Assembly (NCBI GenBank): GCA_951406725.2
Contig: OX597826.1
Span: forward strand, 41,974,001-42,038,000
Direction: 5' to 3'
Length of the DNA: 64,000 nt
Origin: Octopus vulgaris
Lineage: Eukaryota
The position numbers and the translations under genes were made by a program. Of this stretch, positions 60,495 through 63,708 are shown piece after piece. The stretch's first letter is position 1. The number at the start of each line of letters is the position of its first letter. The notes under the pieces are model-generated. The model saw only the letters and a program-made list of their open reading frames with translations, searched no databases and had not been told where the DNA came from.

Positions 60495-61545
60495 CCTTAT
60501 TAAAGTTTCTTGGCAAACAGATGTACATGTTTTCCCTCTATTGTGCATCAGACGTTTTAACTCTTTCCGTTTCGTTTGTCGCTGAGTGAGTCCAAATCGT
60601 AGCCCTCCACCCCCATCATGATGATTTATAAATAAGTACCAGTTACACACTGGGGTCGATGAATTTTCGACTTAATCCGTTATATATGATGTGTTTCTTT
60701 CAGTTTTCTTTTACCAAATCTACTCACAAGGCTTTGGTCGGTCCGATGCTACAGTGGAAGACATTTGCTCAAGGCGCCACACAGTGGAACTGAACCCAGA
60801 ATCATGTGATTGGGAAGCAAGCTTCGTACCACACAGCCATGCGTGCGTACATTTGGTGAAGAAATCCTTACTAAGATTAATTATGATGTAACCAACTGAA
60901 TTACCGAGTATGTAAGTTATATTTCTGAGTATTTAAGTACACACGCACGCGCACACGCACGCACGCGCGCGCACACACACACACACACACAATTTCCTAT
61001 AAATAAAGGATCACTGTCTCATCCATCGGATCAAAAAGTATCTTCCGAAATTGATGCCAGAGAAACGGTGGAGATTCTACAGAAACAATGCACCTGTCTT
61101 CATAGACACAAATGAAATTAATTTATTAATTTGGGGGAAGCAATTTTTAAAGCTAATTTTACCTACCAAGCAGTCGTTGCTATTGTCTCTTACAACAAGA
61201 TATCTAGAAATACATAGATACATACATACATACATATATATATATATATATATATATATATATTATATATATATATATATATATATATATATATATATAT
61301 ATATATATATATATATAATTAATCAATATAGGGTGGCAAAAAAAATTTTGTAGAATTCTTTTGCCACCAGCGGCCTAGTAGGAAAAAATTAAAATAGTCA
61401 AAGACCATTTTTAAGTTCAACATCAACAATAAAGGAACGGCCATAATAGGCCATTCACCCACTAGAAATAACAGCCAAAGCTTCAACCGCAAATAAAAGT
61501 TAATTCAGTAAACCAGGAGAAAATTTAAAAAACATTTACCCTGTA

Positions 61546-61652
61546 ATTTCTTATACGATATACCGTTTCATCTGCTGATTAATGGTAAACTAACCTGATT
61601 AAATTAAATCAAGCCAATCTTCCACAGGCCCTCAGATTCTTCAGTAAGAAAT
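61546..61652 (-). ncRNA. Type I hammerhead ribozyme, copy 1
   Basis: AUUUCUUA-CUGAAGA-AUCUG-[long hairpin]-CAGAU-GAAA-CGG-uaua-UCG-UA^UAAGAAAU; all core residues intact; predicted cut between 61554 and 61553. Confidence 0.88.
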
Positions 61653-62038
61653 AGCCCAAGACGGAACAGATATTTTCACGAGGCATTTCCGACGTTGCCA
61701 AGTTAATATCTGACCTAAAATTTTCAAATCGTCGCACTCGCGCCAAATTTATCGGCAGCAAATAAATATAAGCCGTCGATTCCATTACGGAATTAACCAG
61801 AAAATTCATAATTAATCAATATAGGGTGGCAAAAAAAAATTTTGTAGAATTCTTTTGCCACCAGCGGCCTAGTAGGAAAAAATTAAAATAGTCAAAGACC
61901 ATTTTTAAGTTCAACATCAACAATAAAGGAACGGCCATAATAGGCCATTCACCCACTAGAAATAACAGCCAAAGCTTCAACCGCAAATAAAAGTTAATTC
62001 AGTAAACCAGGAGAAAATTTAAAAACATTTACCCTGTA

Positions 62039-62145
62039 ATTTCTTATACGATATACCGTTTCATCTGCTGATTAATGGTAAACTAACCTGATTAAATTAA
62101 ATCAAGCCAATCTTCCACAGGCCCTCAGATTCTTCAGTAAGAAAT
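62039..62145 (-). ncRNA. Type I hammerhead ribozyme, copy 2
   Basis: Same motif as copy 1. Confidence 0.88.
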
Positions 62146-62534
62146 AGCCCAAGACGGAACAGATATTTTCACGAGGCATTTCCGACGTTGTCAAGTTAAT
62201 ATCTGACCTAAAATTTTCAAATCGTCGCACTCGCGCCAAATTTATCGGCAGCAAATAAATATAAGCCGTCGATTCATTACGGAATTAACCAGAAAATTCA
62301 TAATTAATCAATATAGGGTGGCAAAAAAAAAAAATTTTGTAGAATTCTTTTTGCCACCAGCGGCCTAGTAGGAAAAAATTAAAATAGTCAAAGACCATTT
62401 TTAAGTTCAACATCAACAATAAAGGAACGGCCATAATAGGCCATTCACCCACTAGAAATAACAGCCAAAGCTTCAACCGCAAATAAAAGTTAATTCAGTA
62501 AACCAGGAGAAAATTTAAAAAACATTTACCTGTA

Positions 62535-62641
62535 ATTTCTTATACGATATACCGTTTCATCTGCTGATTAATGGTAAACTAACCTGATTAAATTAAATCA
62601 AGCCAATCTTCCACAGGCCCTCAGATTCTTCAGTAAGAAAT
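62535..62641 (-). ncRNA. Type I hammerhead ribozyme, copy 3
   Basis: Same motif as copy 1. Confidence 0.88.
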
Positions 62642-62896
62642 AGCCCAAGACGGAACAGATATTTTCACGAGGCATTTCCGACGTTGCCTAGTTAATATCT
62701 GACCTAAAATTTTCAAATCGTCGCACTCGCGCCAAATTTATCGGCAAATAAATATAAGCCGTAATGGAATCGACGGCTTATATTTATTTGCTGCCGATAA
62801 ATTTGGCGCGAGTGCGACGATTTGAAAATTTTAGGTCAGATATTAACTTGGCAACGTCGGAAATGCCTCGTGAAAATATCTGTTCCGTCTTGGGCT

Positions 62897-63003
62897 ATTT
62901 CTTACTGAAGAATCTGAGGGCCTGTGGAAGATTGGCTTGATTTAATTTAATCAGGTTAGTTTACCATTAATCAGCAGATGAAACGGTATATCGTATAAGA
63001 AAT
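62897..63003 (+). ncRNA. Type I hammerhead ribozyme, copy 4
   Basis: atttctta ctgaaga atctg...cagat gaaa cggtatatcg ta taagaaat; predicted cut after 62995. Confidence 0.88.
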
Positions 63004-63392
63004 TACAGGGTAAATGTTTTTTAAATTTTCTCCTGGTTTACTGAATTAACTTTTATTTGCGGTTGAAGCTTTGGCTGTTATTTCTAGTGGGTGAATGGCC
63101 TATTATGGCCGTTCCTTTATTGTTGATGTTGAACTTAAAAATGGTCTTTGACTATTTTAATTTTTTCCTACTAGGCCGCTGGTGGCAAAAGAATTCTACA
63201 AAATTTTTTTTTTGCCACCCTATATTGATTAATTATGAATTTTCTGGTTAATTCCGTAATGGAATCGACGGCTTATATTTATTTGCTGCCGATAAATTTG
63301 GCGCGAGTGCGACGATTTGAAAATTTTAGGTCAGATATTATACTTGGCAACGTCGGAAATGCCTCGTGAAAATATCTGTTCCGTCTTGGGCT

Positions 63393-63493
63393 ATTTCTTA
63401 CTGAAGAATCTGAGGGCCTGTGGAAGATATTTAATTTAATCAGGTTAGTTTACCATTAATCAGCAGATGAAACGGTATATCGTATATATAAAT
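63393..63493 (+). ncRNA. Hammerhead copy 5, helix I and II damaged
   Basis: Core intact, but the 3' strand of helix I reads tatataaat and helix II has a deletion. Confidence 0.6.
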
Positions 63494-63708
63494 TACAGGG
63501 TAAATGTTTTTTAAATTTTCTCCTGGTTTACTGAATTAACTTTTATTTGCTATATTGAAGCTTTGGCTGTTATTTCTAGTGGGTGAATGGCCTATTATGG
63601 CCGTTCCTTTATTGATGATATATATATATATATATATATATATATATATATATATATATATATATATATATATATATATATATATATATATATATATATA
63701 TATATATA

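What the first reader, a model, noticed from the sequence alone, without database searches (positions are those of the whole stretch)
61316..63617. Retrozyme-like array: ~493-nt monomers, each with a canonical hammerhead ribozyme
Seen: near-identical non-coding monomers, four of five with a full type I hammerhead (8-bp perfect helix I, CUGAAGA/GAAA core, GUA cleavage triplet, near-palindromic helix III). Cut-to-cut spacings are 493, 496 and 489 nt. The rest of the monomer has more stems (ggtggcaaaa/ttttgccacc, cagatatt/aatatctg enclosing ggca/tgcc). Established: metazoan non-LTR retrozymes are tandem repeats with type I hammerheads that yield monomeric linear and circular RNAs, and Penelope-like elements carry hammerheads in their pLTRs. 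Inference: a young cephalopod retrozyme-like family, with a monomer longer than the few hundred nt I recall for described metazoan ones. I cannot confirm it is undescribed.
Basis: partly seen in the sequence, partly recalled or inferred. Interest (0 to 1): 0.92.

Follow-up and report, generated by a model that had tools for sequence, protein, structure and literature searches.

The report
Two-armed retrozyme with Penelope insertion footprint
This is one copy of a young, widely dispersed, non-coding jumping repeat carrying a self-cutting hammerhead RNA motif, whose insertions are mirror-image pairs of repeat arms that start at two fixed points, the footprint of Penelope-type retrotransposon enzymes copying one RNA into both ends of a DNA break.

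Summary
Observation confirmed: four intact type I hammerheads and one broken, spacings 493/496/489. The family is dispersed (2,586 exact hammerhead-core matches; subfamilies 88-100% identical) and non-coding. In 58 of 65 two-armed loci one arm ends at site A and the other at site B, 107-109 nt apart; none is AA or BB. This matches the 'tail' signature of Penelope-like elements (PLEs), also seen in intact Neptune-like PLEs of this genome. Both arms share one haplotype, tandem junctions carry no scar at the ribozyme cut (1 of 265), and arms stop preferentially just downstream of the cut. The hammerhead core is under selection and folds best as a dimer. No RT gene is attached (79 loci) and no checked PLE shares the sequence. 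Best reading: a non-autonomous retrozyme integrated in trans by a Neptune-like PLE through twin priming on one, probably circular, RNA. Kind known; the nucleotide-level integration footprint was not found in the papers searched. Cleavage, circles and the partner are untested.

The parts
61210..61317 (.). (TA)n target, left side
   Evidence: Tandem Repeats Finder; sequence
61315..62762 (-). Arm A: 2.9 monomers, outer 3' end at site A (61315)
   Evidence: L021 3816-5263
61315..61421 (-). Terminal 'tail' (site B to site A), present at this end only
   Evidence: end coordinate derived from the alignment
61546..61652 (-). Type I hammerhead, predicted cut after 61554
62039..62145 (-). Type I hammerhead, predicted cut after 62047
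62535..62641 (-). Type I hammerhead, predicted cut after 62543
62759..62762 (.). Inversion junction: the 5' ends of the two arms overlap by 4 nt
62759..63619 (+). Arm B: 1.7 monomers, outer 3' end at site B (63619)
   Evidence: L021 5260-6120
62897..63003 (+). Type I hammerhead, predicted cut after 62995; long helix II, palindromic helix III
63071..63086 (+). 16-nt motif shared (15 of 16) with a second hammerhead repeat family, about 40 nt upstream of site B; candidate recognition site
   Evidence: E 0.03 in a pairwise comparison; weak
63128..63236 (+). Internal copy of the tail (site B 63127 to site A 63236), with a 10-13 bp hairpin
63393..63492 (+). Fifth, damaged hammerhead (helix I 3' strand changed, 7-nt deletion in helix II)
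63618..63708 (.). (TA)n target, right side

Best explanation
A non-autonomous, PLE-dependent retrozyme. Multimeric transcripts self-cleave at hammerheads that fold as double hammerheads through the palindromic helix III (inferred), giving about 493-nt monomers that a host ligase can circularise (inferred from PMC7229834). The RT-endonuclease of a Neptune-like PLE binds the RNA near the tail, cuts both strands of a (TA)n target and primes one DNA end at site A and the other at site B of the same RNA (end positions shown; enzyme inferred). Each cDNA runs towards the RNA 5' end for 0 to 9 monomers, most simply by going round a circle (inferred), and the two cDNA ends are joined head to head, often through a few bases of overlap (junctions shown). 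The result is a palindrome of two tandem arms with the tail at one end only.
For: Ends: 58 of 65 two-armed loci are A+B, 0 AA, 0 BB, 7 have one end elsewhere; in the set not chosen by its ends 30 of 33. A ends fall at reference 490-495, B ends at 379-391. (TA)n on both sides in 35 of 39 and 35 of 40 loci. Intact Neptune-like PLEs here do the same: one tailed and one untailed arm in 3 of 3 two-armed loci whose two ends were seen (L085, L166/167, L168/169). Two RT start sites bounding the tail, and cutting and extension of both strands, were shown in vitro for a lizard PLE (PMC11167929). One template per insertion: arms never differ at two common markers (0 of 24 each; P 7e-7 and 7e-5); opposite arms differ by 0.55% against 5.5% between loci in the older set, 0.28% against 0.61% in the young set; 17 loci have private variants fixed across both arms. 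No indel at the cut in 264 of 265 copies that span it. Inner ends are enriched at reference 250-280, just 3' of the cut: 26 of 143, 9.6 expected, 0.0006 after best-window correction. Core invariant in 18 of 18 monomers except N7 (all four bases) and H17 (A/C); unconstrained co-fold gives the double hammerhead (-73.6 against 2 x -31.9 kcal/mol); helix III centre varies UA/GC/AC. Compensatory change in helix II in 6 of 18 rows and in helix I in 1. Longest ATG ORF 66 aa.
Against: No partner identified: no checked PLE 3' region resembles the monomer (best BLAST E 0.008, best profile E 0.15, apart from one retrozyme stub). A pure monomer circle does not explain 13 variants shared by only some monomers of a locus: three alternate with period 2 (L028, L104, L132), others are irregular (L023, L026, L056), and L104's two arms differ at two sites. 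L054 joins an A arm to the A-type arm of a different family, so two RNAs can feed one insertion. 14 of the 26 stops near the cut lie in arms that had already crossed a hammerhead (14 of 167 later arrivals), which fits linear multimers, or a pause at the folded ribozyme, as well as circles. Covariation is thin: 2 pairs, not above shuffles on that measure (228 of 500), rows related. Pair 10.1-11.1 is not G-C. The 40 older loci were chosen by an exact A end. Assembly error in tandem arrays cannot be excluded.
Confidence: 0.75

Rival explanations
1. Same element and same PLE-type twin priming, but the template is a linear, partly cleaved multimeric transcript; circles play no part in integration.
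For: Stops cluster just 3' of the cut even after earlier hammerheads were crossed (14 of 167); L054 ends at the cut itself; partial variants and the symmetric inner variant of L058; cleavage was not needed for insertion in vitro by the lizard PLE.
Against: A linear copy cannot be longer than its source, yet arms of 4-9 monomers occur (11 of 143 arms) in young and older subfamilies; private variants fixed in every monomer of both arms (17 loci) need a one-monomer bottleneck followed by re-multimerisation.
Confidence: 0.25
2. The monomer is the pLTR of an autonomous PLE not yet found, and the arrays are its internally deleted or truncated copies.
For: The insertion structure is exactly that of PLEs; thousands of endonuclease candidates were left unscored (6,136 candidates, 150 scored); vertebrate retrozymes derive from pLTRs.
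Against: Head-to-tail monomers with no coding insert in 79 of 79 loci; the five RT/EN fragments found in four loci lie beyond the (TA)n boundary; checked autonomous families have 35-50-nt tails and, by eye, degenerate hammerhead cores.
Confidence: 0.1
3. Short PLE-end insertions that were later amplified locally as minisatellites by unequal crossing-over or conversion; the RNA matters little.
For: This is the route suggested for vertebrate retrozymes in the 2026 preprint; period-2 and adjacent shared variants could be local duplications.
Against: Inverted arms are as alike as copies within one arm (0.28% against 0.27%); outer ends stay exact; many separate, very young loci each have multimeric arms; the ribozyme core is conserved while N7 varies freely.
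Confidence: 0.08
4. A fold-back DNA element or assembly artefact (palindromes from chimeric long reads).
For: 12 of 65 junctions are near-symmetric (4.1 expected); the window's fifth copy has TA-like changes not seen elsewhere.
Against: 53 of 65 junctions are asymmetric, and the two outer ends are different fixed sites, which a read fold-back would not give; both strands and many contigs carry copies.
Confidence: 0.03

Closest known systems
Metazoan non-LTR retrozymes (Cervera and de la Pena 2020, PMC7229834; passages and Discussion read)
   Same: Non-coding tandem repeats, one type I hammerhead per unit, low GC (35%). That paper proposes circRNA templates copied into tandem cDNA, with PLEs as the strong candidate.
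   Different: Monomer 493 nt; every insertion is two diverging arms with fixed A and B ends in (TA)n. The paper's main text has no occurrence of 'inverted', 'microsatellite', 'octopus' or 'cephalopod'. Circular RNA is shown there, not here.
Vertebrate non-LTR retrozymes as PLE derivatives (Li, Clavereau, Pollet 2026, bioRxiv 10.64898/2026.07.22.740005; parts 1-3 of 5 read; supplements closed)
   Same: Non-autonomous, PLE-linked, lengths 51-972 bp.
   Different: Link there rests on co-occurrence and pLTR homology, multimers are ascribed to local amplification, and no insertion ends are analysed in the parts read. Here the link is the integration footprint, with no pLTR homologue found.
PLE 'tail' and inverted pLTR structure (Craig et al. 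2021, PMC8557442, passages; Frangieh et al. 2024, PMC11167929, parts 1-2 of 4)
   Same: Inverted 5'-truncated arm, tail at one end only, (TA)n target, two RT start sites bounding the tail.
   Different: No ORF; tail 107-109 nt instead of 30-40; arms are multimers of a short unit.
Dimeric hammerheads of PLEs and animal repeats (Cervera and de la Pena 2014, PMC4209133, passages)
   Same: Short palindromic helix III, active as a double hammerhead.
   Different: 8-bp helix I, A-U at 10.1-11.1, helix II extended by a 58-nt hairpin insertion.

Membership tests
Type I hammerhead ribozyme | Core CUGANGA / GAAA / NUH around three helices, helix I open | tested here: met
   four copies in the window; 18 of 18 monomers keep the core, N7 free, H17 A or C
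Type I hammerhead ribozyme | G10.1-C11.1 pair | tested here: not met
   A-U 12, G-U 4, unpaired 2 of 18
Type I hammerhead ribozyme | Match to an Rfam hammerhead model | tested here: not met
   no hammerhead family among 53 matches at E<=1; the long helix II insertion is the likely reason (inference)
Type I hammerhead ribozyme | Self-cleavage; loop 1-loop 2 tertiary contact | not testable with these tools
   needs in vitro transcription and probing
Non-LTR retrozyme | Tandem units each with a type I hammerhead | tested here: met
Non-LTR retrozyme | Non-coding, low GC | tested here: met
   longest ATG ORF 66 aa in a 4-mer, GC 35%
Non-LTR retrozyme | Dispersed mobile copies | tested here: met
   39 of 995 candidates scored, all 97-100% loci; 681 exact A-end and 182 exact B-end junctions
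Non-LTR retrozyme | Expressed as monomeric linear and circular RNA | not testable with these tools
   contigs cannot tell a circle from a tandem transcript
Non-LTR retrozyme | Target-site duplication | tested here: inconclusive
   targets are (TA)n, so a duplication cannot be read
Non-LTR retrozyme | No LTR, PBS or PPT | not tested
   no LTR-like layout seen; PBS and PPT were not searched for
PLE-mobilised sequence | Inverted 5'-truncated arm, tail at one end only, microsatellite target | tested here: met
   features as listed in PMC8557442
pLTR of an autonomous PLE | Flanks an RT + GIY-YIG ORF | tested here: not met
   none in line in 79 loci
pLTR of an autonomous PLE | Sequence similarity to the pLTR of a PLE in the same genome | tested here: inconclusive
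   none against the families fetched; other families remain unscored

The most novel reading that the evidence does not exclude
A circular ribozyme RNA is captured by a dimeric PLE RT-endonuclease that holds the 107-nt tail between its two active sites and copies the same circle from both ends of a (TA)n double-strand break in two simultaneous rolling-circle reactions; several unrelated retrozyme families in this genome use a shared short motif to hijack the same enzyme, and dimeric circles and two-RNA chimeras also integrate. The family would then be a natural, minimal substrate that explains both how animal retrozymes integrate and why PLE insertions are inverted with a tail at one end.
Probability: 0.4. 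Interest if true: 0.82.

Novelty: new variant of a known kind. Interest (0 to 1): 0.62.

Why it matters
How animal retrozymes get into DNA is open: one paper proposes circRNA templates with PLEs as candidate helpers, a 2026 preprint suggests local amplification of PLE ends and says the mechanism remains to be worked out. This family records the integration reaction base by base in hundreds of very young loci, in a genome that also holds intact Neptune-like RT-endonuclease ORFs. It ties retrozymes to PLE machinery by mechanism, gives a strict rule (one end at each start site, one RNA haplotype for both arms) that models of PLE transposition must meet, and offers a 493-nt RNA, a (TA)n target and candidate enzymes for a direct in vitro test.

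Tried and rejected
Rfam scan: no hammerhead match; the miRNA hits at 62709-62829 only reflect the inversion. Sequencing runs: no RNA holder listed; four runs laid were all contigs, each with a joint from the monomer's end back to its start, in X1 as a single 523-nt contig; this cannot tell circle from tandem or RNA from DNA and is not used as evidence. Partner search: GIY-YIG family search and three endonuclease queries gave several young PLE families (open frames of 781, 784, 775 and 753-764 aa); none of the 3' regions fetched resembles the monomer; L170 did not reach a pLTR, and only 1.6-2.1 kb per place was read for L165-L174. The GIY-YIG next to a B end in L062/L096 is a separate decayed insertion. 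The family-2 query was cut from the wrong strand and its hits were ignored. Template jumping between linear monomers with scars: rejected, 1 of 265. Coding role: rejected. L1-type twin priming with abutting, non-overlapping arms: inner ends do not cluster at the other arm's start. A first reference was 2 nt short of the true period and was replaced. Rows dropped: L050 as a duplicate of L051 (same flanks); arms cut by a locus edge; L040 ends in N. Earlier scan findings: none for this genome. Literature searches without a cephalopod retrozyme or an analysis of retrozyme insertion ends: (listings only, except the papers named as read); subscription journals, Repbase/Dfam entries and preprint supplements were not visible and may hold this family.

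Full report
OBSERVATION. The stretch holds five near-identical copies of a 493-495-nt unit. The locus is not a plain tandem: 61315-62762 is on the minus strand and 62759-63619 on the plus strand, the two 5' ends overlap by 4 nt, and (TA)n flanks both sides. The monomer folds better than all shuffles (z -4.36). Rfam gives no hammerhead hit; helix II has a 58-nt insertion and pair 10.1-11.1 is A-U.

FAMILY. The window lies in a 2.8-Gb, 227-contig genome. The monomer gave 995 first-look candidates, of which 39 were scored, with 237 matches; those listed are 97-100% identical. Exact patterns give 681 A-end junctions, 182 B-end junctions and 2,586 hammerhead cores, with 0 in the reversed controls; these are lower bounds. 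I fetched the 39 scored loci and 40 of the first 41 listed A-end loci on contig C1, which include older subfamilies at 84-99% identity. The unit is non-coding (longest ATG ORF 66 aa) and 35% GC.

INSERTION STRUCTURE. Nearly all loci are two diverging arms with both 3' ends outwards. On a 495-nt reference (cut after 254) the outer ends fall at two sites: A (490-495, 73 arms) and B (379-391, 63 arms). Of 65 two-armed loci (L050 dropped as a duplicate) 58 are A+B, none AA or BB, 7 have one end elsewhere; in the set not chosen by its ends 30 of 33. If each end chose A or B independently, 30 of 30 mixed pairs would have odds near 1e-9 (arithmetic). (TA)n lies on both sides in 35 of 39 and 35 of 40 loci. 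Arms hold 0 to 9 monomers, A and B arms alike in length. Junctions: overlap of 2 nt or more in 30, near-blunt in 11, inserts in 24 of 65. This is the PLE signature: inverted 5'-truncated copy, tail at one end only, microsatellite target (PMC8557442, passages). For a lizard PLE the tail was shown to be the stretch between two internal RT start sites, with both target strands cut and extended (PMC11167929). The tail here is 107-109 nt, against 30-40 in those papers.

AUTONOMOUS PLEs IN THE GENOME. A GIY-YIG search found many intact 781-aa frames with RT and GIY-YIG domains and a CX4CXXC linker, the mark of Neptune/Nematis PLEs. Other young families have frames of 784, 775 and 753-764 aa. They end in (TA)n and show the same rule, one tailed and one untailed arm, in 3 of 3 two-armed loci whose ends were read, with tails of about 35-50 nt. 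None of the 3' regions read resembles the monomer, and no RT/EN lies in line with any of 79 retrozyme loci; fragments in four loci lie beyond the (TA)n boundary. So the family is non-autonomous and its helper is not identified.

TEMPLATE. Both arms come from one haplotype: 0 of 24 loci differ between arms at each of two common markers (P 7e-7, 7e-5). Opposite arms differ by 0.28% (young set) and 0.55% (older set), different loci by 0.61% and 5.5%; 22 loci have private variants fixed in all covering copies, 17 across both arms. Only 1 of 265 copies spanning the cut has an indel there, the window's own damaged copy. Fixed private variants need a single-monomer bottleneck and re-multimerisation, which a circle read round and round gives most simply. 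Against a pure monomer circle: 13 variants are shared by only some copies; three alternate with period 2 (dimeric circles or local duplication), others are irregular, and L104's arms differ at two sites. Inner ends are enriched at 250-280, 26 of 143 against 9.6 expected (0.0006 after window correction), both on first arrival (12 of 124) and later (14 of 167) against a background of 3%. This fits a 5' end made by self-cleavage or a stop at the folded ribozyme; I cannot separate them. In L054 an A arm stops at the cut and is joined to an arm of a second hammerhead family.

RIBOZYME. In 18 monomers across subfamilies every core base is invariant except N7 (U 9, A 4, C 4, G 1) and H17 (A 12, C 6). 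99.1% of cells in the six named helices pair; helix II has a G-C/A-U change in 6 rows and helix I in 1; the count of covarying pairs is not above shuffles, and rows are related. The monomer's lowest-energy fold traps the core, the active fold costs 1.7 kcal/mol more, and two copies co-fold without constraint into a double hammerhead at -73.6 kcal/mol; the helix III centre switches between UA and GC, both self-complementary, with one AC intermediate. Dimer dependence is known for such motifs (PMC4209133, passages). Cleavage itself is untested.

MECHANISM. Shown: ends, targets, junctions, one haplotype per insertion, conserved core. Inferred: transcription, dimer cleavage, ligation to circles, binding by a Neptune-like RT-endonuclease, double-strand cut in (TA)n, priming at A and B, rolling-circle synthesis, end joining. 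Confidence: PLE-mobilised non-autonomous retrozyme about 0.85; with a circular template as the main route about 0.6; 0.75 for the model as stated.

NOVELTY. Retrozymes (PMC7229834), their PLE link (2026 preprint) and the PLE tail (PMC8557442, PMC11167929) are known. I found no cephalopod retrozyme and no analysis of retrozyme insertion ends; the library lacks most subscription journals and repeat databases, and preprint supplements were closed. The new part is the footprint that joins these lines: a retrozyme with strict two-site, one-template PLE integration and an unusually long tail. New variant of a known kind; interest 0.62.

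Noticed in passing
L054:5727-6160; L138-L149: A second hammerhead repeat family (2,100 first-look candidates, 40 scored; period about 580 nt) with the same two-arm layout in (TA)n, its own two ends 101 nt apart, a different helix III palindrome that also co-folds as a dimer, and a 16-nt motif shared with the family studied.
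   Followed up: partly
L054:4500-6160: Chimeric insertion: an A arm of this family ends at the ribozyme cut and is joined to the A-type arm of family 2, so two different RNAs fed one event.
   Followed up: partly
L083:368-4068; also L091, L093, L171: The Neptune-like 781-aa RT-endonuclease frame is preceded by an overlapping 479-aa ORF in the -1 relation, with a U-UUU-UUA heptamer in frame in the overlap in 9 of the 11 copies where the site was located; a homologous ORF (57% identity) precedes another family. Possible programmed -1 frameshift in an endonuclease-bearing PLE; no strong downstream structure; no useful Pfam match; one paper search found nothing.
   Followed up: partly
L083:4930-5010; L169, L171, L174: The autonomous PLE pLTRs carry, by eye, hammerhead-like motifs with altered cores (for example U3/A8, a variant reported in PMC4209133), whereas the non-autonomous families keep the standard core.
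   Followed up: no
window 63800-63843 (-) and 30600-30642 (+): Minimal hammerhead-like motifs with one core change; the first belongs to a short repeat whose (TA)n end is the target this element sits in.
   Followed up: no
window 63237-63619: The fifth copy has several changes towards TA-like sequence not seen in other loci; assembly error near the long (TA)n or conversion by the target.
   Followed up: no
window 11999-12336, 52187-52920, 58749-59156, 60080-60448: A 184-186-bp unit in short tandem runs, unrelated to the retrozyme.
   Followed up: no
L050 and L051 (G000:C11, about 63 kb apart): Two copies of the same insertion with the same flanks: a segmental duplication or an uncollapsed haplotype.
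   Followed up: no
L023:5416-6925: A 33-nt duplication that ends at site A inside the array, in two monomers; possible re-priming at site A.
   Followed up: no
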